Source of the DNA: a virus | DNA length: 64,000 nucleotides | Reading direction: 5' to 3' (one strand) | Virus record (IMG/VR): IMGVR_UViG_3300045988_166882 | In this document: positions 1,931-29,412 of the stretch, in pieces | Layout of the letters: every line of letters starts with the position of its first letter | Numbering within the stretch: position 1 is the first letter of the stretch | Translations under genes and position numbers: made by a program | Notes under the pieces: generated by a model | What the model was told of the DNA's origin: nothing | What the model saw: only the letters and a program-made list of their open reading frames with translations | Database searches by the model: none

Positions 1931-1984
1931 CAACGTTATACTACGTGACGCCGCGAGGCGATATAACTATCATTTTACAAGTTT

Positions 1985-2020
1985 CCCCCAGTAGACAAAA
2001 CGTCCGCTGGGGGTTTCTGT
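1985..2020 (+). terminator. rho-independent terminator
   Basis: CCCCCAGTAGAC/GTCCGCTGGGGG 12-bp stem with one mismatch, 5-nt loop, followed by TTTCTGTT. Confidence 0.6.
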
Positions 2021-5130: not shown

Positions 5131-5222
5131 CTTGGAAAAATCTTCGTAAAAAAGAGAAAATTTCTTCAAATTCTCTTGGCGGTTTGGAAAATTCGCCGTA
5201 CCTTTGCAGTGGAAAATGAAAC
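5131..5222 (+). promoter_or_regulatory. promoter plus conserved leader, copy B of 4
   Basis: AAATTTCTTCAAATTCTCTTGG (identical 22-mer also in copy C), then TTTGGAAAATT, TACCTTTG (5199-5206, exact TAnnTTTG) and GTGGAAAATGAAAC. Confidence 0.55.
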
Positions 5223-5236
5223 TAAACCTTTTAATT

Positions 5237-5650
5237 ATGAAAGCAACCGTTGAAACCATCCGCGAAATCGTAAAGGTCCTGACCCCTGAAGAACAGCAAC
5301 TCTTGAAAGACACGTTCTTGTACGGAGGTTGGGGTGATACCGACATTGAGTTCCTCGACGAAGAGGGTAAAGTAGAAACCGTTGGCGCTTGGGGATATTG
5401 TACTAATGACGCTCGCGAAGGTGGTCATTTCGCCGGGCGTGTGGTATCGACGATGTTCCGGTCGATTTACCGTAAACTCTGCGCCGCTAACCGTAACACG
5501 ATTGGCGCCCAGCTGTCGCACTGTAACGATTGGTGGGGTGATGGTAGCGGCGATATGCTGTTCGTTCGCTCGGCGTGGAATAAGGCGTGGATGGAATGGG
5601 CCAAGGAGCCCATCCAGCCCGACGCCATCAACGCCTGCCTCGCCAAGTAA
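5237..5650 (+). CDS. hypothetical protein
   Basis: ORF 5204-5650. The ATG at 5237 lies downstream of the conserved leader and is the preferred start. Confidence 0.65.
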   Translation: MKATVETIREIVKVLTPEEQQLLKDTFLYGGWGDTDIEFLDEEGKVETVGAWGYCTNDAREGGHFAGRVVSTMFRSIYRKLCAANRNTIGAQLSHCNDWWGDGSGDMLFVRSAWNKAWMEWAKEPIQPDAINACLAK

Positions 5651-8083: not shown

Positions 8084-8107
8084 CCGCGCGTTGGCGTTGA
8101 CGCTTTT

Positions 8108-8143
8108 AGCCGCTGGGGATTTAGGTCCTTGGCGGCTTTTTCG
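8108..8143 (+). terminator. possible rho-independent terminator
   Basis: AGCCGC/GCGGCT stem with a long loop, followed by TTTTTCGTT. Confidence 0.4.
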
Positions 8144-8149
8144 TTGGCA

Positions 8150-8460
8150 CCCCCTTTCTTCCCCCTAATGGTTTCCCTCCTGCAACCTTCCTTTCCTTAA
8201 CCCCCTATAATCCCCCTTTTCCGGTGTAAAGAGAAAAAGACACTTCTCTTTACACTCAACGGGAGACTTTCCTTCTCCAGATAAATCTGTCGAAGACGTC
8301 TCCCGACGCGCACATACGTGCGCACACGTGCTTACGCACGAGAGAACACACGCAAGAAGCAAACGCCAAACATCTCAAATCGCCAAAACGCCGTCTCTCC
8401 AGCACACACGCGCGTGTACAACCGCCAACAGCACTACGCAAAGACGCCAACGTTATTGAG
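8150..8460. other. non-coding block: polypyrimidine/C5 tracts, perfect hairpin, Pu-Py palindromes, CGCCAA repeats (candidate origin or genome terminus)
   Basis: Four CCCCC runs at 8150, 8161, 8201 and 8212. Hairpin with 12-bp perfect stem at 8224-8235/8244-8255. GGGAGAC/GTCTCCC at 8262/8298, GCGCAC/GTGCGC at 8308-8323, palindrome ACACGCGCGTGT at 8406-8417. CGCCAA at 8364, 8381, 8423 and 8445. Confidence 0.4.
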
Positions 8461-8483
8461 GCTGAAAAACTCACAAACACGAA

Positions 8484-8675
8484 ATGGAATCAAACCCCCA
8501 ACACCCTGAAATCGATCATATGATCCAAGGCATGCAGCGTTTGGCGCAGAAATACGGAAAGCGAATCACAAATCGTCAACTCGATGTACGCTCGCTGACG
8601 GTATGTTCACTCAACGGTTGGCGCCTTACGTTGGAACGAGTAGAAACCACCAACGAAAACTCCTCACGCCAATGA
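8484..8675 (+). CDS. hypothetical protein (63 aa)
   Basis: ORF whose stop overlaps the next ATG (ATGA). Confidence 0.5.
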   Translation: MESNPQHPEIDHMIQGMQRLAQKYGKRITNRQLDVRSLTVCSLNGWRLTLERVETTNENSSRQ

Positions 8676-10102: not shown

Positions 10103-10399
10103 ATGAAAGTGCAAGATTTTTACGGTGCGCTGGCCAAGAAGGCTGGTACCACCAAGGCTCAGGCGATTGAGTTCGTCCGCGCCCTCGAAGAGGTCCTCAC
10201 CGAAGAGGTCCGTGACAAGGGTGAAACTATTCCGCTGGGTAAGGTCGGCAAGTTTGTCCTGAAGGACGTTCCGGCTCGTACCATGCGTAACCCCTTCACC
10301 GGGCAGGACATCGAGACTCGTGCCTACCGGACCATCCAGTTCAAAACGGCGTATGCCATGAGGGCCGACGCTGAAACCGCCAAAAAAGGCAAAAAGTAA
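10103..10399 (+). CDS. HU/IHF-family DNA-binding protein
   Basis: 98 aa. GKFVLKDVPARTMRNPFTGQDIETRAYRTIQFK matches the HU beta-arm signature (R-x-x-R-N-P-x-T-G). Confidence 0.85.
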   Translation: MKVQDFYGALAKKAGTTKAQAIEFVRALEEVLTEEVRDKGETIPLGKVGKFVLKDVPARTMRNPFTGQDIETRAYRTIQFKTAYAMRADAETAKKGKK

Positions 10400-10445
10400 C
10401 CTGTAAAATAATTCATTTACTGGTATATTAGTTAGCTTTCGCAGT

Positions 10446-10478
10446 CCGTCAGGGAAGTGGTTTGCCCTGACGGATTTT
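10446..10478 (+). terminator. rho-independent terminator
   Basis: CCGTCAGGG/CCCTGACGG 9-bp stem followed by ATTTTTC. Confidence 0.7.
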
Positions 10479-10493
10479 TCGTTACTTTCGCGT

Positions 10494-11130
10494 CAACGTT
10501 ATACTACCTGAAACGAGGGAATGCTGACTTTCCATGCCAGTTAGTTTCGAGTTGCTATAAGCGAGTTTCTTTTCCAAAACAGGATCGGCCAACGCCGTGA
10601 AGGTTTGGTTGATCCAACTCTTAGCGTTCCCTCTACTTTAGCCAGAAGAGCGCTGGGGAGTCAAAGAGTGGCCACAATTTACTCCATACAGTATCTCGTT
10701 CCGACCTCCGGGTCGGCTGGCACCAATACGGCTGGCCCGAAGCCGATCTCGATGAAACCAGCGGTGCGCACGCTGAGGGGCTACGAAGGATAGTAGCTGG
10801 GGTGAAATTCCCCGGTGAAGCCGGACGAAGTCGACGCCGATAGACAATAAAGAGCCTACGCTCACTCGGCTAATCGTTCTACAGACCACGACCTTCGCGG
10901 TCCGGCGAGGCCCTCCGTGGGTTGTGCGAGTAGAACGAGGGTATATCTCCACGGCTGGGGGGATCGGAGTTAGGCCTCCGTAAGGTGTAAGCCCTGACGC
11001 CAGCCAACGGGCCGCAAGGTCAAACAAATTGTCTCCAAGGCAGCAACGCAGACTTCCTCCATAGCGAGCGCCGGAGCGGAGGAGACAGACTCTAACTGGG
11101 GGAAGAGTATAAGCGATTCGTCGCGCCCCC
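10494..11130 (+). ncRNA. candidate large structured RNA, class unknown
   Basis: About 640 nt with no credible ORF and many local helices. CCGACC-UCCG-GGUCGG at 10701-10716; GCGA-UUCG-UCGC at 11113-11124 nested in GGGGG/CCCCC at 11097-11130; an 11-bp helix at 10582-10615; TTCCTCC/GGAGGAG at 11054/11078. Ends 5 nt before the tRNA. Confidence 0.4.
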
Positions 11131-11135
11131 TACGC

Positions 11136-11206
11136 TGATTCGTGGTGTAACGGTAACACACCAGATTTTGGTTCTGGCGTTGGAGGTTCGAATCCTTCCG
11201 GGTCAA
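11136..11206 (+). tRNA. tRNA-Gln (anticodon UUG)
   Basis: Hand-folded cloverleaf. Acceptor TGATTCG/CGGGTCA, D stem GTGT/ACAC, anticodon stem CCAGA/TCTGG with loop TTTTGGT, T arm GGAGG-TTCGAAT-CCTTC. No encoded CCA. Confidence 0.8.
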
Positions 11207-11487
11207 CTCTAAGGGCTTTTCGCGAAGAGCCTACCGAAGATCGCTAACGCCGCTGGCTGCGCTTCGGGTCGTGATAACCGGAATCACGATGACGCCGCGG
11301 CAACCATAACCCCGAAGGTCAGGGGTTCAAAGAAATTTCGTTCGTCATCGTTGTGGCAGTTCGCCCGCCCGGCCGGCATGGGGAAGATCAATAGGAACGG
11401 CAACCGACGAGCGCGGGGCGCGAAATATCGCCCCGACCCTAAAAGTCTTAACAGACTTCCATCAATCAAAGGTTTAATTCACCCCGG
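11207..11487 (+). ncRNA. structured 3' extension downstream of the tRNA
   Basis: No ORF. 9-bp long-range helix ACGATGACG/CGTCATCGT at 11286-11294/11343-11351. Hairpins GGGGCG/CGCCCC at 11415-11434, ACCCC/GGGGT, and TCGTGAT/ATCACGA. Confidence 0.3.
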
Positions 11488-11527
11488 ACCGCCCCACAGT
11501 AGCGATACAGCGAGGCGGTTTTCTTTT
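11488..11527 (+). terminator. possible rho-independent terminator
   Basis: ACCGCC/GGCGGT stem followed by TTTTCTTTT; the loop is rather long. Confidence 0.4.
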
Positions 11528-11557
11528 ACAACTATAAGGATGGAAAAGACTAATTAA

Positions 11558-12436
11558 ATGAAGATAGGAATAATATACAAATTAACCATTTTAGCGAAGT
11601 ACAAGTTCTACGGACAACGCCCCTTTTATGTCGGTCAACACTGGGGAATGGAAGACTTTAACTCGTATTTTGGCGGAGGTACAATTTGGAACGATTTTCT
11701 GAATGTCGTCAAAAAGGATTATCCGCTTCACTGGAAAAAGTTTGTTCGGCGTGAAATTTTATATCAAGGCGCGTGTGATCAACGTGCTTTGGACTTTCTC
11801 GAACAGTATTACATAAAGCGCGAAATGGCGCATTATACCGAAGAGAAAGGCGGTTGCAACGTTTTACGTGGTACGGCGAATGCGTTTGGCGCTGGGAGTC
11901 CGATGAAGGACGAAAATTGCAAAAGAAAGCAGGCTGAATCGTTGAAAAAGTATTATGATGAATACGGACATCCGTGTTTAGGTAAAAGGGCAACTCCCGA
12001 ACTGCGTAAACGGTTGAGTGAAGCGCATCGAGGCAAGAAACTATCGCCAGAAACGGTTGAAAAGATACGTAAAGCCAACGCTGGAAAGAAACGAACGCCT
12101 GAATTTTGTGAGTTGATGCGTGAAATGTGGCGTAAACGGAAAGAAGCGGGTTACGTGCCAAAGAATAGAGGGCGAAAAGTCCCCAGGGAAATAGTTGAAA
12201 AACGAGCCGCAGGGGTACGTAAATATTATGCCGAACACGCTTCATCGTTTTTAGGTAAACACCACACCGAGGCTACAAGGTTAAAAATTAGTGAAGCGAA
12301 TAAAGGCAAGAAATTACCGCCTTTTTCAGCTGAAACGAAATTAAAGATGAGCCAATCAGCCAAAAAGGCGTGGGCAATTAGAAAACAACAAAATAATTAC
12401 AATGCGTCGTTCGAATTATCTTGTAATGGACACTGA
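11558..12436 (+). CDS. free-standing GIY-YIG homing endonuclease with NUMOD3 repeats
   Basis: N-terminal GIIYKLT...FYVGQH (GIY-YIG). Repeated G-K-x-x-[ST]-x-E-x-[RK]-x-K-[IML]-S blocks typical of NUMOD3. AT-rich relative to neighbours. The 3' end overlaps the next gene. Confidence 0.8.
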   Translation: MKIGIIYKLTILAKYKFYGQRPFYVGQHWGMEDFNSYFGGGTIWNDFLNVVKKDYPLHWKKFVRREILYQGACDQRALDFLEQYYIKREMAHYTEEKGGCNVLRGTANAFGAGSPMKDENCKRKQAESLKKYYDEYGHPCLGKRATPELRKRLSEAHRGKKLSPETVEKIRKANAGKKRTPEFCELMREMWRKRKEAGYVPKNRGRKVPREIVEKRAAGVRKYYAEHASSFLGKHHTEATRLKISEANKGKKLPPFSAETKLKMSQSAKKAWAIRKQQNNYNASFELSCNGH

Positions 12437-13070: not shown

Positions 13071-13119
13071 CGACCGCCAACGTTATACACCGTGTCTAAC
13101 AACAAAACCGTATAACAAA

Positions 13120-14360: not shown

Positions 14361-17078
14361 ATGATGCCTCAAATTGCGATCCCGTCGTTGACGCACCGTT
14401 TGGCTTGTTTAGACCTCGTTGACGAGATAATCGAGGGTATGGACGAACGCGGCCTTAACGAGATGATGAGTGGCGATACACACGACGTTGACACGATATT
14501 TGATGCTTTGATGATGGACACGTACCGGATTATGTATACTGGCGACGTGTCGATTGATTTTAAGCCCCGCTATGAAGAGAACGTCTCGGCCGTGGTTGAA
14601 GACACCCTGCGGTGTGCCAATTTGACGTATTTCATCACCTCCGTCATCCCGGACTTCCAGCTGTCGTGGCACCACTTGGAGTGGGGTGAGTTAGTCCACA
14701 ACCACAAGAAATTGTGTATCAACGCAGCACGTGACCACGGGAAGTGTGAAGCCGTCGGAACCCCTGTCCGGATGTACGACGGAACTATCAAAAAGGTCGA
14801 AGACGTTGTGGTTGGCGACTTGTTGATGGGCGTCGACTCTAAGCCCCGCCGCGTGGTTGCTACGCGCCGTGGCCACGATTCGATGATGTACCGTATCGAC
14901 CAGTCGCGCGGTGATAGCTACACCGTCAACTCACGCCACATTTGTACGCTGATCGAGAAGGACCGCAACGGTTCCATCGCTACAGCGTCGAAGCGGATAG
15001 TGGATATTGATATTCCGACGCTTTTAAGCAAGACCCCGAACTGGGTGAAGGAACGTTACCGCGGTTTCAAGGTGGCAGTGCAGTACCCCACGCGGCCCGT
15101 GGGGTTGGAACCATATTTTCTTGGGTACTGGTTAGGCGACGGCAACTCCAACAACCAGAAGATCACCACCGCCGACCCTGAAGTGTGTGAGTACTTACAC
15201 TCTTACGCCGAGCGCTTGGGGCTTCACTATGGCCAAAATGGTATGGTAGTGACACTTGGAATTGACGTTCGTGGCCGCGGTAAGCGTAACCCGCTGGAAA
15301 GGATGCTCAAGGGTTACAACCTGCTCTACAATAAGCACATTCCGGAGCAGTACCTCGTCAACAGCGAAGAAGTTCGTCTTCAGGTGTTGGCTGGGTTGAT
15401 CGATTCCGACGGTAACTATTGGCAGGGCGGCTATCACTTCGGTAATACGAACTACCAGTTGGTGTGTGACGTGAAGAACTTGGCCGACAGCCTTGGCTTC
15501 TGTACCCGAATGGGTGGTGGAACGCGGTATTGTAAAGCGTTAGGCCGCGACTATTCGTCGTGGTGCGTGACTATTTCTGGTGAACTGGACCGCATCCCAG
15601 TAAAGATCGCTCGTAAAAAGGTCCAAACCGACTGGGCCGCCAAGACGTCACACAAGGACTGGGGCACTATCGACGGCGTACACCCTACGGTGGTATCGTC
15701 GTTGAAGATCACGCCCGCGGGTGAAGGTGACTACATATCTATCACCACCGACGGCGACCACCGCTTCGTGCTGGGTGACGGTACGGTTACGCACAACTCG
15801 TTCTATTTCTCCAACGCCTACGCCGCGTGGCAATTATACCGCTATAAGAAGCCGTCAACGACCCGTTACTCGAAGCGTCCCACGGTAGCGTCGTCGAATC
15901 GCGGCTTCTTGTTTTCGTTCTCACTCCAGCAGAGCGTTGACCTCTTGGAGATTCTGAAAGGAACCATCGAGGAAAACGAGATTTTGAAGGAACGCCTGCT
16001 ACCCCAGTCCACGGCCAACAACTGGTCGGCTACCAATATCGTGTGCCGTAACGGCGCGCGTTTGACGGGTAAGGGTTTTGGGTCTTCGGTGCGTGGTGCT
16101 CACCCCTACTGGATTATCGTCGATGACGGCCTGAAGGACAACGTCATCTATTCCAGCCTCCAGCGAAATAAGTCTACCGACTATTTCCATTCCGTAATTA
16201 TGAATATGCTCGTACCCGGCGGCCAGATCGTTGTCGTCGGTACGCCGTTCCACGCCGAGGACCTTTACGGCGACCTCAAGACCAAGAACGGTTGGTTCGT
16301 GATCGAGTACCCAGCCATCTTCCCCGACGGGCGAATCCTTTGGCCGCAGCGTTGGTCGTTTAAGGACCTGATGGACAAAAAGGAGACCCAAGGCTCGATC
16401 ATCTTCTCGCGTGAGAACCTTTGCCGCCCGATCACCAACGAATCGTCGATCTTCCCGATGGAAATCCTCACTCGGTCGTTGCTGCGTATGGAGAACTACA
16501 CGTTGGTGGATTCACGCGAAGAGTTCCCCGTTAAGTTCTCCAAGGTAGTCGTGGGCTGTGACTTCGCTATGTCGGCCAACGTCGGTGCTGACTACGCCGT
16601 ATTCAGCGTGTGGGGTATTGACGAACTGACCGACGAGCGTTGGCTGCTTCACCTGTGGCGTGAAAAGGGTGCCAAGTTCTTCGAACAGATGAACGTCCTG
16701 CGCCGTATCAACTCGCGTTTCCGGCCCGACCTGATCGTGATGGAGAACAACACCTTCCAGCAGATATTCGTCGAAACGGCCGACACTGAGGGTATGCCCG
16801 TGATTGGCCACACTACGGGAATTGATAAGTACGACCTGAAGACGGGGTGGCCTCACCTGTCGACGCTATTCGAGCGGGGCAAAATCCACATCCCGGTGGG
16901 TAACGTCTACTCTCAGCAGGTGAAAGACCTCATCTTCCAAGACCTCGGTTCAGTGGCCTTCACCGAAAAAGGCTTGGAAAGCGTGGGCAGCCACGACGAT
17001 ATTTCGTCGTCGTTCTGGTTGGCTGACTTGGCCGCTTCGCGTATGACTACGGGCTTTAAGTTTGATATGTTAGGTTAG
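14361..17078 (+). CDS. terL: terminase large subunit, interrupted by an intein
   Basis: Removing residues 129-479 joins AARDHGK|S into a Walker A motif. The downstream nuclease-type region includes VVGCDFAMS. Lies upstream of the portal and head genes. Confidence 0.85.
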   Translation: MMPQIAIPSLTHRLACLDLVDEIIEGMDERGLNEMMSGDTHDVDTIFDALMMDTYRIMYTGDVSIDFKPRYEENVSAVVEDTLRCANLTYFITSVIPDFQLSWHHLEWGELVHNHKKLCINAARDHGKCEAVGTPVRMYDGTIKKVEDVVVGDLLMGVDSKPRRVVATRRGHDSMMYRIDQSRGDSYTVNSRHICTLIEKDRNGSIATASKRIVDIDIPTLLSKTPNWVKERYRGFKVAVQYPTRPVGLEPYFLGYWLGDGNSNNQKITTADPEVCEYLHSYAERLGLHYGQNGMVVTLGIDVRGRGKRNPLERMLKGYNLLYNKHIPEQYLVNSEEVRLQVLAGLIDSDGNYWQGGYHFGNTNYQLVCDVKNLADSLGFCTRMGGGTRYCKALGRDYSSWCVTISGELDRIPVKIARKKVQTDWAAKTSHKDWGTIDGVHPTVVSSLKITPAGEGDYISITTDGDHRFVLGDGTVTHNSFYFSNAYAAWQLYRYKKPSTTRYSKRPTVASSNRGFLFSFSLQQSVDLLEILKGTIEENEILKERLLPQSTANNWSATNIVCRNGARLTGKGFGSSVRGAHPYWIIVDDGLKDNVIYSSLQRNKSTDYFHSVIMNMLVPGGQIVVVGTPFHAEDLYGDLKTKNGWFVIEYPAIFPDGRILWPQRWSFKDLMDKKETQGSIIFSRENLCRPITNESSIFPMEILTRSLLRMENYTLVDSREEFPVKFSKVVVGCDFAMSANVGADYAVFSVWGIDELTDERWLLHLWREKGAKFFEQMNVLRRINSRFRPDLIVMENNTFQQIFVETADTEGMPVIGHTTGIDKYDLKTGWPHLSTLFERGKIHIPVGNVYSQQVKDLIFQDLGSVAFTEKGLESVGSHDDISSSFWLADLAASRMTTGFKFDMLG
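14745..15797 (+). mobile_element. intein (351 aa) with double LAGLIDADG homing endonuclease
   Basis: Starts with Cys (CEAVGTPVRMYDG) and ends THN followed by Ser+1. LAGLIDADG motifs GYWLGDGNS and LAGLIDSDGNY. Confidence 0.85.
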
Positions 17079-28786: not shown

Positions 28787-29340
28787 AAACAGCAGTGCAA
28801 ATAATTCTCGTTTTGGTGGCCCTAATTCTCGCGTTTTTATTCGGGCGAAGTACTTATACCCCTGAACCCCCTAAAGTCGTTGAAAGGTGGCGTACAAAGC
28901 ACGACACGGTCGAATACCGCGATACAGTAAAGGTTCCGGTCCCGAAAATCATCATCCGCGACACCACCATCTACCTACCGGGTGAAATCGACACCGCCGC
29001 GCTACTGGCCGACTATCTGGCACGCAAGGAGTATCACCTCGACTTCTCCAACGACAGTATCGGCGAGTTCCGTGTCGACGCCACTGTCCAGTGTAACGCC
29101 ATTACGGAGGCCGTGTCTCACGTCAAGCCGCTGATCCGCATCCACGAGATAGAACACACCATTATCGACAAGCGAATACCCTTCATCCAAGGCTACGCCC
29201 AGATAGGAACGTCCGTGGACTTTGGTACACAAAAGTTCTCCGCCGGAGCCGACTTTCGTCAACGCTTCATGGTTGGCGCTTCAGCTATAAGGGTTGAAGA
29301 CCAGTGGGGGTATACGTTAGATTTTGGCATAAAATTTTGA
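28783..29340 (+). CDS. membrane-anchored hypothetical protein
   Basis: N-terminal TM helix (IILVLVALILAFLF); ATGA overlap. Confidence 0.6.
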   Translation: MKTAVQIILVLVALILAFLFGRSTYTPEPPKVVERWRTKHDTVEYRDTVKVPVPKIIIRDTTIYLPGEIDTAALLADYLARKEYHLDFSNDSIGEFRVDATVQCNAITEAVSHVKPLIRIHEIEHTIIDKRIPFIQGYAQIGTSVDFGTQKFSAGADFRQRFMVGASAIRVEDQWGYTLDFGIKF

Positions 29341-29342
29341 CG

Positions 29343-29394
29343 ATTCTCTTGGCAGTTTGGAGAAAATTCAGTACTTTTGTAGTGGAAATGAAAC
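29343..29394 (+). promoter_or_regulatory. promoter plus conserved leader, copy D of 4
   Basis: ATTCTCTTGGCAGTTTGGAGAAAATTCAGTACTTTTG (box at 29372-29379, exact TAnnTTTG) followed by TAGTGGAAATGAAAC. Confidence 0.55.
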
Positions 29395-29412
29395 TTATAA
29401 ACCTATAACACC

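What the first reader, a model, noticed from the sequence alone, without database searches (positions are those of the whole stretch)
10479..11530. About 1.05 kb of protein-free, hairpin-dense sequence with an embedded tRNA: candidate large structured RNA
No credible ORF exists between the HU-gene terminator (10446-10478) and the homing endonuclease gene (11558). The only ORFs are short or Arg/Gly/Ser-rich shadows, yet every other gene junction in this genome is at most ~100 nt.

The interval is GC-rich and full of stable local helices capped by UNCG-type tetraloops. Examples are CCGACC-UCCG-GGUCGG (10701-10716) and GCGA-UUCG-UCGC (11113-11124), the latter nested in GGGGG/CCCCC (11097-11130). 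There are also longer helices at 10582-10615 and at 11054-11060/11078-11084, and a 9-bp long-range pair at 11286-11294/11343-11351.

A TACTTTCG box (10483-10490) with TTG 20 nt upstream could be its promoter, and a terminator-like hairpin ends it at 11488-11527. The upstream block stops 5 nt before tRNA-Gln, so RNase P/Z processing would release separate RNAs.

Very large phage-borne RNAs adjacent to or containing tRNAs are known (the GOLLD and ROOL classes). I cannot tell by eye whether this belongs to one of them or is new.
Basis: partly seen in the sequence, partly recalled or inferred. Interest (0 to 1): 0.8.

Follow-up and report, generated by a model that had tools for sequence, protein, structure and literature searches.

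The report
Large tRNA-carrying structured phage RNA
A roughly 100-kb human-gut phage carries a 1-kb protein-free transcription unit in which its only detected tRNA gene sits between conserved folded RNA domains, one with a nearly invariant 72-nt core and one with a palindromic loop that could pair with copies of itself; it matches no described RNA family but resembles in kind the giant phage RNAs GOLLD and ROOL.

Summary
The ORF-free interval and tRNA-Gln(UUG) are real, and comparison with about 50 related gut-phage contigs shows a conserved structured RNA locus rather than junk or a decayed gene.

A conserved promoter-like block and a covarying intrinsic terminator bound one unit (about 10497-11527). 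It contains:
- a 12-13-bp leader helix
- optional hairpin modules; about 550 nt of the window copy is dispensable
- a 72-nt core that is invariant where the tRNA is only 79-89% identical
- an H-type pseudoknot with a hairpin 5 nt upstream of the tRNA
- a long 3' hairpin (11339-11413)

The apical hexamer of the 3' hairpin stays self-complementary while its sequence changes (GCCGGC, GUCGGC, CCCGGG, GUGCAC). This is the signature used to validate symmetric kissing loops in OLE and GOLLD.

A divergent relative keeps the core helix through compensatory changes. Another has seven tRNAs between the same flanking modules.

Rfam gives no GOLLD, ROOL, intron or ribozyme match. A weak CPEB3/HDV-like hit covers one hairpin and fails the HDV features I could test.

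Best reading: a new tRNA-bracketing, probably self-associating, structured phage RNA. Its function is unknown and there are no expression data.

The parts
10445..10479 (+). Intrinsic terminator of the upstream HU-like gene (context; marks the 5' boundary of the unit)
   Evidence: Inverted repeat TCCGTCAGGG/CCCTGACGGA followed by a T run. It is conserved with compensatory U/C-A/G changes in relatives.
10461..10508 (+). Promoter-like block: -33 TTTG (10461-64), -7-like TACTTTCG (10483-90), and the conserved 13-mer AACGTTATACTAC (10496-10508)
   Evidence: The block is invariant or nearly so in all relatives. The spacing is the canonical 18 nt. The 13-mer recurs after two other gene ends in the window. 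The promoter role is inferred; there are no expression data.
10515..10633 (+). Leader domain closed by a 12-13-bp helix (10515-25 with 10623-33); includes the window-type-only hairpin M1 (10580-10615)
   Evidence: duplexfold finds a 12-13-bp closing helix in every variant although the sequences differ: GAGGGAAUGCU/AGCGUUCCCUC, GAGGAAACGCCG/CGGUGUUUCCUC, GUAACGAGCGUAACGCC/GGCGUUACUUCGUUAC. L261 has GAGGAACGA/UCGUUCCUC.
10640..10722 (+). Optional module M2: closing helix GCCAG/CUGGC, hairpin 10701-16, and a hairpin whose loop carries the palindrome GUGGCCAC (10668-75)
   Evidence: Present in some lineages only. The closing helix switches from GCCAG/CUGGC to GCCGG/CCGGC. The loop palindrome varies as GUGGCCAC, GUGGUCAC and UGCGCA, but is imperfect (GUGACCAC) in L010.
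10723..10950 (+). Module M3. Its first half (about 10729-10860; GGCUGGCCCGAAGCC hairpin, GAAACC..GCGCACG..GAGGGGCUA, GAUAGACAAUAAAGAG) is ancient; the second half is window-type only
   Evidence: Absent from most of the clade, but the first half is conserved in the divergent relatives L261 and L262, with a compensatory AGCG/CGCU to GCCG/CGGU change.
10951..11021 (+). Modules M4 (GGCUGG/CCAGCC closing an inner hairpin CGGAG/CUCCG) and M5 (GNRA hairpin 11010-21)
   Evidence: The inner hairpin has 3 of 5 pairs with changes on both sides. M5 switches from GGCC-GCAA-GGUC to GGUC-GUUA-GACC.
11022..11094 (+). Near-invariant core; closing helix UGUCUCC (11030-36) with GGAGACA (11081-87)
   Evidence: The stretch 11029-11094 is identical in all of the roughly 50 clade members I aligned (46 element sequences plus L264 and L265), except for a 5-nt loop (11059-64). 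Among seven representative loci the 72-nt core is 92-100% identical, the tRNA 79-100%, the exonuclease gene 79-93% and the HU gene 63-99%. In L261 the helix becomes GGUUUC/GAAACC, two double compensatory changes. The interior fold is unresolved (z = +0.7).
11089..11130 (+). H-type pseudoknot: ACUC (11089-92) with GAGU (11105-08), P1 GGGGG (11098-102) with CCCCC (11126-30), inner hairpin GCGA-UUCG-UCGC (11113-24), and the invariant loop GUAUAA
   Evidence: 99.7% of cells are paired and 7 pairs change on both sides, against 0-1 when the partners are slid. L137 has ACCC/GGGU. L019 switches a G-C to C-G. L009 has GGGAU/AUCCC. L001 has a 36-nt insert in the inner hairpin.
11136..11207 (+). tRNA-Gln (anticodon UUG), U1-A72, no encoded CCA
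   Evidence: ARAGORN and Rfam RF00005, 61.2 bits. Present at this place in every relative that has the element.
11208..11335 (+). Optional post-tRNA hairpin module (window-type). Other lineages have a different module or none
   Evidence: Absent in L001, L019 and L022 and replaced in the L003/L004 types.
11339..11413 (+). 3' domain: a long interrupted hairpin. E1 11339-46/11406-13; E2 11350-54/11400-04; E2b 11359-62/11395-98; E3 11364-66/11381-83. The apical loop (11367-80) holds the palindrome CCGGCCGG (11369-76). There is a conserved asymmetric loop ..CAAUAG (11384-94)
   Evidence: 99.7% of cells are paired against 35-58% when slid. Across four lineages every helix is kept with different sequence, and the apical hexamer is always self-complementary: GCCGGC, GUCGGC, CCCGGG, GUGCAC. 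Composition-preserving loop shuffles give a palindrome with probability 0.04, 0.07 and 0.14.
11414..11435 (+). Hairpin CGGGGCG-CGAAAUAU-CGCCCCG
   Evidence: 100% paired; a C-G to U-A switch in 7 sequences; conserved loop GAAAUAU. Absent in L261 and L262.
11488..11527 (+). Intrinsic terminator ending the unit
   Evidence: Stem CCGCC/GGCGG plus a U run; G-C to A-U compensatory change in 7 sequences. The loop is inverted in L020.

Best explanation
Window positions about 10497-11527 form one + strand transcription unit that makes no protein. It runs from a conserved promoter-like block to a conserved intrinsic terminator and carries the only tRNA detected in this 64-kb window, tRNA-Gln(UUG), between conserved structured RNA domains.

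Shown by comparison:
- the leader helix
- several optional hairpin modules
- a near-invariant 72-nt core closed by a helix
- an H-type pseudoknot with a hairpin ending 5 nt before the tRNA
- a long 3' hairpin whose apical hexamer remains a palindrome while its sequence changes

Inferred:
- RNase P cutting at 11135/11136, together with 3' tRNA processing, releases a 5' RNA (about 630 nt here, about 200 nt in minimal relatives), the tRNA, and a 3' RNA (about 320 nt here, about 190 nt minimal).
- The 3' hairpin loop forms a symmetric loop-loop (kissing) contact between two copies of the RNA. The palindromic M2 loop may add a second such contact. The RNA would then self-associate, as GOLLD, ROOL and OLE do.
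- The invariant core binds a sequence-specific, highly conserved partner that remains unidentified.

In effect this is a tRNA-bracketing scaffold RNA with the layout 5' domain - tRNA(s) - 3' domain. Its biological role is not known.
For: 1. There is no ORF, and none is conserved in 40 variants. Distant relatives have two protein genes at this position, with no remnant of them here.
2. The promoter-like block is conserved and both flanking terminators covary.
3. Helices are kept through compensatory and G.U changes that work only on the + strand.
4. The core is invariant across the clade, where the tRNA and the flanking genes vary much more.
5. The divergent homologue in L261 (40.5 bits, E = 9e-8) keeps the core helix by double changes.
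6. L262 has seven tRNAs between the same 5' module and the same 3' hairpin.
7. The apical hexamer is self-complementary in 24 of 24 sequences, and all three symmetric pairs change on both sides. This is unlikely by chance. The same argument validated the OLE L9.3 and GOLLD L21a kissing loops (PMC12286853).
Against: - There are no transcript, processing or oligomerisation data.
- Phylogenetic depth is small: about 50 contigs, all from human gut, in three lineages. Covariation therefore rests on few independent events, and two of the alignments were fitted to a model.
- The interior of the core does not fold better than shuffled sequence, and its pairing is unresolved.
- MFE z-scores for the whole region are weak.
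- Palindromes could act at the DNA level.
- The M2 palindrome is imperfect in L010.
- L262 lacks a recognisable core.
- A conserved terminator and promoter would equally fit a plain tRNA operon.
Confidence: 0.6

Rival explanations
1. This is an ordinary tRNA operon. The leader and trailer hairpins serve only transcription, processing and stability, and have no function once cut off.
For: The promoter, the terminator and a tRNA are the only elements with a known role. L262 shows a plain-looking seven-tRNA array at the same locus. Many modules are dispensable.
Against: - A 72-nt leader segment more conserved than the tRNA itself is not expected of a spacer.
- The 5' module and the 3' hairpin are kept across lineages with different tRNA content.
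- Conservation of palindromy in a loop is not explained by processing.
- Distant relatives carry tRNA-Gln in compact intergenic sites without any of these modules.
Confidence: 0.17
2. The core plus pseudoknot is a self-cleaving ribozyme that processes the tRNA precursor. It could be HDV/CPEB3-like, perhaps circularly permuted, or a new class.
For: - There is a weak Rfam CPEB3_ribozyme match to the P1/inner hairpin (E = 0.27 in the window, 0.0058 in L019).
- The order P2'-P1-P2-P3-P1', preceded by a helix and a CAGA junction, would fit a permuted HDV fold (my own reading of the sequence).
- HDV-like theta ribozymes are tRNA-linked in gut phages (PMC10879173).
- Extreme conservation is typical of catalytic cores.
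Against: - Scores are far below the gathering threshold: 11-21 bits against 35.
- No G.U pair is conserved at the base of P1.
- The would-be L3 is a variable tetraloop and carries a 36-nt insert in L001.
- A 5-nt invariant spacer separates 'P2' from 'P3'.
- The P2 partner lies upstream, not downstream.
- Theta ribozymes lie 3' of tRNAs, not 5'.
- No other ribozyme family scores at E <= 10.
Confidence: 0.07
3. The element is a cis-acting regulatory leader, for example a put-like processive antiterminator or a riboswitch acting on the terminator at 11488-11527. It would control read-through into the downstream replication and structural genes, which all lie on the same strand.
For: The unit sits between two terminators at the head of a long co-directional gene block. 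Invariance could reflect binding to host RNA polymerase. In homing-endonuclease-free relatives the exonuclease gene starts about 35 nt after the terminator.
Against: - There is no alternative antiterminator pairing supported by covariation.
- No Rfam riboswitch scores.
- A homing-endonuclease gene can be inserted between the terminator and the exonuclease gene without loss of the element.
- The palindromic loop is not explained.
Confidence: 0.09
4. The invariant core and the palindromes are DNA-level sites (a protein-binding site, an origin-like or packaging sequence, or a recombination hot spot) rather than RNA.
For: - Complete invariance, including the helix positions within the clade, is unusual for RNA.
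- The locus is a hot spot for insertions (modules, tRNAs, homing endonuclease).
- An HU-like DNA-binding gene is adjacent.
- GC skew changes sign nearby.
Against: - G.U pairs are tolerated only on the + strand.
- GUCGGC is self-complementary only as RNA.
- The palindrome sequence changes between lineages, which a sequence-specific protein would not tolerate.
- The core helix covaries in L261.
- There are no iterons or repeats.
Confidence: 0.05
5. It is a divergent member of GOLLD or ROOL, or a group I/II intron, or a decayed protein gene.
For: Shared context: a phage, tRNA-adjacent, large, and next to a GIY-YIG homing-endonuclease gene.
Against: - No Rfam hit to RF02032 (GOLLD), RF03087 (ROOL) or the intron families at E <= 10 in four searches, including on the minimal variant.
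- The tRNA and the flanking genes are uninterrupted.
- The homing endonuclease is absent from most relatives.
- There is no tblastn remnant and no conserved ORF.
Confidence: 0.02

Closest known systems
GOLLD RNA (Rfam RF02032)
   Same: It is phage-encoded, large and multi-domain, with a variable 5' region and a better conserved 3' region. tRNAs are sometimes embedded in the linker between the two domains. It self-assembles through symmetric kissing loops whose palindromes covary (PMC12286853).
   Different: There is no sequence or structure match at E <= 10. The conserved part here is much smaller (about 480 nt, with a 3' domain of about 75-190 nt against about 400 nt). The most conserved piece here lies 5' of the tRNA. 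Multimerisation here is only inferred.
ROOL RNA (Rfam RF03087)
   Same: It is found in phages and prophages near tRNA islands, and is an ornate multi-hairpin RNA with pseudoknots and quaternary kissing loops.
   Different: There is no Rfam match. ROOL does not embed a tRNA. The host range differs: ROOL was named for its rumen origin (PMC12286853), and my own recollection is that it occurs mainly in Firmicutes, whereas the host here is probably Bacteroidota.
Symmetric kissing-loop dimerisation hairpins (HIV-1 DIS, OLE L9.3)
   Same: A stem-loop with a 6-nt self-complementary sequence flanked by purines in the loop. One lineage (L261) even has GUGCAC, a hexamer I recall as an HIV-1 DIS variant. 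The palindrome switches sequence between lineages while staying a palindrome.
   Different: Unrelated sequence context, and no experimental evidence for dimerisation here.
HDV-like ribozymes, including CPEB3 (RF00622) and the tRNA-associated theta ribozymes of gut phages
   Same: A tRNA-adjacent structured RNA in gut phages, with a nested P1/hairpin and a pseudoknot. There is local sequence similarity to the CPEB3 P1-P3 region.
   Different: It lies 5' rather than 3' of the tRNA. Scores are below the gathering threshold. The G.U wobble, the L3 loop and the P2 topology are not met.
Functional tRNA-precursor spacers (for example the E. coli 3'ETS-leuZ sRNA sponge)
   Same: Non-tRNA parts of a tRNA primary transcript that are released by the tRNA-processing enzymes and act on their own (from my own knowledge of that system).
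   Different: Those spacers are short and act by antisense pairing. I found no target complementarity here beyond chance.

Membership tests
GOLLD (RF02032) | Match to the curated covariance model, in particular its universally conserved 3' domain | tested here: not met
   No hit at the gathering score or at E <= 10 in the window, in the minimal variant L019 or in L262.
GOLLD (RF02032) | Layout 5' domain - variable linker that can hold tRNA(s) - 3' domain | tested here: met
   One tRNA (window, L261) or seven tRNAs (L262) lie between the conserved 5' module and the 3' hairpin. This is a resemblance in layout, not homology.
GOLLD / ROOL / OLE kind | Homo-oligomerisation through symmetric kissing loops | not testable with these tools
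   Only the sequence signature is present: a palindromic hexamer retained through sequence change.
ROOL (RF03087) | Match to the curated covariance model | tested here: not met
   No hit at E <= 10.
HDV-like / CPEB3 ribozyme (RF00622) | Score at or above the gathering threshold (35 bits) | tested here: not met
   11-20.6 bits. The best E-value is 0.0058, in a 511-nt search of L019.
HDV-like / CPEB3 ribozyme (RF00622) | G.U wobble closing P1 at the cleavage site; compact conserved L3 forming P1.1 | tested here: not met
   The base of P1 is U.U, A-U or G-C in different members. 'L3' varies (UUCG, UACG, UGCG, UACA, CGAG) and holds a 36-nt insert in L001/L144.
HDV-like / CPEB3 ribozyme (RF00622) | P2 formed with a strand 3' of P4, preceded by J4/2 carrying the catalytic C | tested here: not met
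   The covarying partner of GAGU lies upstream (ACUC, 11089-92; L137 has ACCC/GGGU). The sequence downstream of the tRNA is not conserved. A permuted fold cannot be excluded.
Theta ribozymes (tRNA-associated minimal HDV-like) | Ribozyme G1 within about 5 nt of the tRNA 3' end | tested here: not met
   The sequence after the tRNA is variable or leads straight into the nested 3' hairpin; no HDV-like family scores there.
Group I / group II introns | Rfam intron models; interruption of a host gene | tested here: not met
   The only hit is an 8.7 E-value match to a group II fragment. The HU gene, the tRNA and the exonuclease gene are intact. The homing endonuclease is a presence/absence polymorphism outside the unit.
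tRNA (RF00005) | Cloverleaf model match with an anticodon | tested here: met
   61.2 bits; ARAGORN calls tRNA-Gln UUG.
Intrinsic terminator | GC-rich hairpin followed by a U run, with the stem maintained | tested here: met
   At 11488-11527 the stem is 100% paired, with a compensatory G-C to A-U change. The simple scanner missed it because of its long loop.

The most novel reading that the evidence does not exclude
This is a third, independently evolved class of self-assembling phage RNA. It would be a scaffold that uses one or two palindromic kissing loops to form dimers or closed multimers while carrying tRNAs covalently between its domains. Its invariant 72-nt core would be a new functional centre: either a catalytic site or a binding site for a conserved host machine such as the ribosome, RNA polymerase or RNase P.
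Probability: 0.25. Interest if true: 0.85.

Novelty: new variant of a known kind. Interest (0 to 1): 0.66.

Why it matters
GOLLD and ROOL are among the largest bacterial and phage RNAs with no known function. Their link to tRNAs and their cage-like assemblies are unexplained.

An unrelated, smaller RNA in probable Bacteroidota gut phages shows the same layout (5' domain - tRNA(s) - 3' domain) and the same sequence signature of symmetric loop-loop contacts. This would suggest that tRNA-bracketing, self-associating RNA is a recurrent phage strategy rather than a one-off.

At about 480 nt in its minimal form, with natural variants that add or drop whole modules and hold between one and seven tRNAs, it offers a compact and dissectable system for asking what such RNAs do.

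The 72-nt segment that is more conserved than the tRNA next to it points to a specific, still unknown partner.

Tried and rejected
- **Rfam:** gathering and permissive searches on the window, on sub-regions, on the minimal variant and on L262 returned only tRNA, apart from a weak CPEB3 hairpin match.
- **Cultured phages:** there is no close relative. Only the tRNA matched Bacteroides phages.
- **Exact-motif scans:**
  - The 19-mer core motif hit only the same clade in IMG/VR and gave ten chance hits in GTDB genomes.
  - Looser patterns gave noise or the same clade.
- **Pseudogene idea:** proteins encoded at this position in distant relatives leave no tblastn trace here, and no ORF is conserved.
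- **HDV-like fold with the tRNA as P4:** the downstream P2 partner is not conserved.
- **Group I R/S-like and SRP-like similarities recalled from memory:** neither is backed by an Rfam hit.
- **Antisense targets:** complementarity of the core, leader or 3' domain to the rest of the window is at chance level.
- **Pairing of the RNA 5' end (UUAUAC) with the GUAUAA loop:**
  - The motif is a recurrent promoter-like DNA element in the window.
  - The commonest variant breaks the pairing.
- **Long-range complements 11113-29/11415-31 and 10890-901/11309-20:** these are not conserved and are at the chance level.
- **Covariance model R1 on 55 loci of distant relatives:** nothing better than E = 4.
Full report
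**What is in the window**

Between the HU-like gene (10103-10399) and a GIY-YIG homing-endonuclease gene (11558-12436) lie 1158 nt without a credible ORF. With ORFs of at least 70 aa, this is the largest non-coding gap of the 64-kb window. It is not the only one above 100 nt: 8084-8602 is 519 nt and 1931-2265 is 335 nt.

ARAGORN and Rfam find one tRNA, tRNA-Gln(UUG), at 11136-11207. It is the only tRNA in the window. GC is slightly raised. Single-sequence folding is only weakly better than shuffles: z = -2.0 for 10479-11135 and -0.9 for 11208-11530. The thermodynamic case alone is therefore thin.

**Known families**

Rfam 15 gives nothing but the tRNA at gathering thresholds. Permissive searches (E <= 10) found no GOLLD, ROOL, intron, tmRNA, riboswitch or ribozyme. 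I ran them on the whole interval, on the pre-tRNA 126 nt, on the post-tRNA 331 nt, on a minimal relative and on a tRNA-island relative.

The one exception is a weak CPEB3 (HDV-like) match to the hairpin at 11098-11130. Its E-value is 0.27 in the window and at best 0.0058 (20.6 bits) in L019. The gathering score is 35.

**Relatives**

The window has no close relative among cultured phages. A 905-aa helicase/primase-like protein is 37% identical to proteins of Bacteroides thetaiotaomicron phages. The tRNA resembles Bacteroides-phage tRNA-Gln, and TAnnTTTG promoters occur in the window. From this I infer a Bacteroidota host.

IMG/VR holds 22 related contigs of about 97-101 kb, and human-gut metagenomes hold 25 more. 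Together they give 40 distinct full-length versions of the element, 477-1032 nt long.

In relatives whose exonuclease is only about 50% identical, the same position holds two small protein genes. These genes leave no trace in the window. Where those relatives have a tRNA-Gln, it lies elsewhere in a compact spacer. No ORF is conserved among the 40 versions. The decayed-gene reading is rejected.

**Architecture**

Conservation is mosaic. From 5' to 3' the unit contains the following.
1. The HU terminator, then an invariant block with a -33 TTTG, an 18-nt spacer and a -7-like TACTTTCG. This matches the canonical Bacteroides spacing. It is followed by AACGTTATACTAC, a 13-mer that recurs after two other genes in the window. 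This points to a promoter, so the unit would be transcribed on its own.
2. A leader domain closed by a 12-13-bp helix that is present in every variant with different sequences.
3. Optional modules M1-M5. The distance from the promoter to the core takes discrete values of 117, 138, 183, 268, 287, 457, 544 and 566 nt. About 550 nt of the window copy is therefore dispensable within the clade.
4. A core at 11022-11094.
5. A pseudoknotted hairpin ending 5 nt before the tRNA.
6. The tRNA.
7. An optional post-tRNA module.
8. A long 3' hairpin (11339-11413), a second hairpin (11414-35), a linker and the terminator (11488-11527).

**Evidence that this is RNA structure**

- On the alignment of the pre-tRNA region, the named helices are 89.5% paired, against 33-53% when the partners are slid. 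Eight pairs change on both sides.
- For the 3' region the figures are 99.7% against 35-58%.
- G.U pairs are frequent (for example UG:15, UA:10, CG:8 at one pair). They are valid only on the + strand.
- The pseudoknot ACUC (11089-92) with GAGU (11105-08) is supported by L137, which has ACCC/GGGU.
- P1 switches G-C to C-G in the L019 type and becomes GGGAU/AUCCC in the L009 type. The inner hairpin tolerates different tetraloops and a 36-nt insert.
- Caveat: the clade is shallow and the covariation comes from few events.

**The invariant core**

The stretch 11029-11094 is identical in every clade member I aligned (46 element sequences plus L264 and L265), except for a 5-nt stretch at 11059-64.

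Among seven representative loci, pairwise nucleotide identities are as follows.

| Segment | Identity |
|---|---|
| 72-nt core | 92-100% |
| tRNA | 79-100% |
| Exonuclease gene | 79-93% |
| HU gene | 63-99% |

The core does not fold better than shuffles (z = +0.7), so its invariance is not explained by simple secondary structure. The exact 19-mer does not occur meaningfully in 185,000 bacterial genomes, so it is not copied from a host RNA.

**Divergent homologues**

A protein search with the exonuclease found intermediate lineages at 68% and 72% identity.

L261 (68%) has a diverged core and pseudoknot directly upstream of tRNA-Gln (covariance model R1, 40.5 bits, E = 9e-8).
- Its closing helix is GGUUUC/GAAACC instead of UGUCUCC/GGAGACA. 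That is two double compensatory changes.
- On the model-fitted alignment, 99.7% of cells pair and 7 pairs change on both sides, against 0-1 when slid.
- It also keeps the leader helix and the first half of module M3.

L262 (72%) has seven tRNAs (Gln, Ser, Arg, Met, Thr, Pro, Glu) between the HU and exonuclease genes.
- An M3-like module lies upstream of them and the 3' hairpin plus terminator lies downstream.
- It has no recognisable core.

The conserved flanks therefore bracket a variable tRNA cargo.

**The palindromic loop**

The 3' hairpin keeps all of its helices across four lineages, each time with different sequence.
- E2 is GUUGU/GCAAC in the window, CAACGAA/UUCGUUG in L262 and CCACUG/CAGUGG in L261.
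- E2b is GUUC/GAAC or GAC/GUC.
- E3 is CCC/GGG or CCU/AGG.

Its apical loop always contains a self-complementary hexamer flanked by purines.

| Lineage | Hexamer |
|---|---|
| Most of the clade (the window has the 8-mer CCGGCCGG, 11369-76) | GCCGGC |
| L019 type (self-complementary only with G.U, that is, as RNA) | GUCGGC |
| L262 | CCCGGG |
| L261 | GUGCAC |

Treated as three symmetric pairs, 24 of 24 sequences pair and all three pairs change on both sides. Composition-preserving shuffles of the three independent loops yield a Watson-Crick hexamer palindrome with probability 0.04, 0.07 and 0.14.

Adjacent loop nucleotides cannot pair within one chain. For that reason the authors of the OLE/ROOL/GOLLD cryo-EM study took the same pattern as support for intermolecular symmetric kissing loops in OLE L9.3 and GOLLD L21a (PMC12286853).

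A second loop, in optional module M2, is also palindromic: GUGGCCAC at 10668-75, GUGGUCAC in L005 and UGCGCA in L022. It is imperfect in L010.

**Interpretation**

The most economical reading is a promoter-to-terminator non-coding unit. Its tRNA is released by the standard tRNA-processing enzymes. This also frees a 5' RNA ending in the invariant core and pseudoknot, and a 3' RNA built around the palindromic-loop hairpin.

The layout and the kissing-loop signature make it work like GOLLD: 5' domain, tRNA-bearing linker, 3' domain, self-association. It is not a member of that family. Processing, accumulation, self-association and function are all inferred.

The rivals cannot be excluded without experiments:
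- a plain tRNA operon
- a new or permuted HDV-like ribozyme
- an antitermination or riboswitch leader
- a DNA-level site

Each leaves at least one main observation unexplained.

**Verdict**

This is a new structured RNA family restricted, as far as these collections show, to three lineages of roughly 100-kb human-gut phages. It is conceptually close to GOLLD and ROOL but unrelated to them by sequence or model.

Noticed in passing
window 1932-2020 and 13079-13095: The 13-mer AACGTTATACTAC at the 5' edge of the element recurs exactly at 1932-1944, right after the stop of ORF 1391-1930, and with 3 mismatches at 13079, right after the exonuclease gene. At 1932 it is followed by a GCGA-capped hairpin and a terminator-like hairpin (CCCCCAG..CTGGGGG plus a T run). 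This is either a possible small RNA of about 85 nt or a shared phage promoter motif.
   Followed up: partly
window 5155-5238 and 29328-29411: There are two nearly identical promoter-like blocks (ttctcttggcRgtttgg..TACYTTTG..agtggaaaatgaaac) upstream of ORFs starting at 5204 and 29413. They look like Bacteroidetes-type -7 elements, which fits a Bacteroidota host.
   Followed up: no
window 11558-12436; L003, L006, L010, L012, L013, L021, L261: The GIY-YIG/NUMOD homing-endonuclease gene between the element's terminator and the exonuclease gene is a presence/absence polymorphism. It is absent from most relatives and apparently truncated in L003. In the window it overlaps the exonuclease start by 35 nt.
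   Followed up: partly
L012 (HU terminator loop) and L020 (element terminator loop): In single relatives the loop of a terminator hairpin is replaced by its exact reverse complement while the stem is unchanged. These are hairpin-loop inversions.
   Followed up: no
L262:4220-6000: A relative whose exonuclease is 72% identical carries a seven-tRNA island (Gln, Ser, Arg, Met, Thr, Pro, Glu) at the same locus. It has 140-380-nt non-tRNA spacers that I did not analyse for structure.
   Followed up: partly
window 14361-17078: The 905-aa protein is labelled terminase large subunit by PHROGs, but it matches phage helicase/primase-like proteins. Its 905-aa counterparts in relatives L262 and L264 hit Pfam Hom_end_hint, while L265 has a 554-aa gene at the same place. 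This suggests an intein-containing replication protein.
   Followed up: no
window 8084-8602: This is a second ORF-poor gap of 519 nt, C-rich in its first part and A/C-rich afterwards. It lies close to where the cumulative GC skew turns.
   Followed up: no
window 10850-10868 vs 11129-11142 and 11225-11234; 10512-22 vs 10934-44: Short direct repeats link modules of the element: AAGAGCCTAC occurs twice, CCTACGCT.A.TCG occurs in M3 and at the P1/tRNA junction, and AACGAGGGAAT is matched by AACGAGGGTAT. This hints that some optional modules arose by internal duplication.
   Followed up: no
L001 and L005 (IMGVR_UViG_3300029572_000001, 199 kb): One IMG/VR contig holds two different versions of the locus about 100 kb apart. 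It looks like a chimeric or concatenated assembly of two related phage genomes.
   Followed up: no
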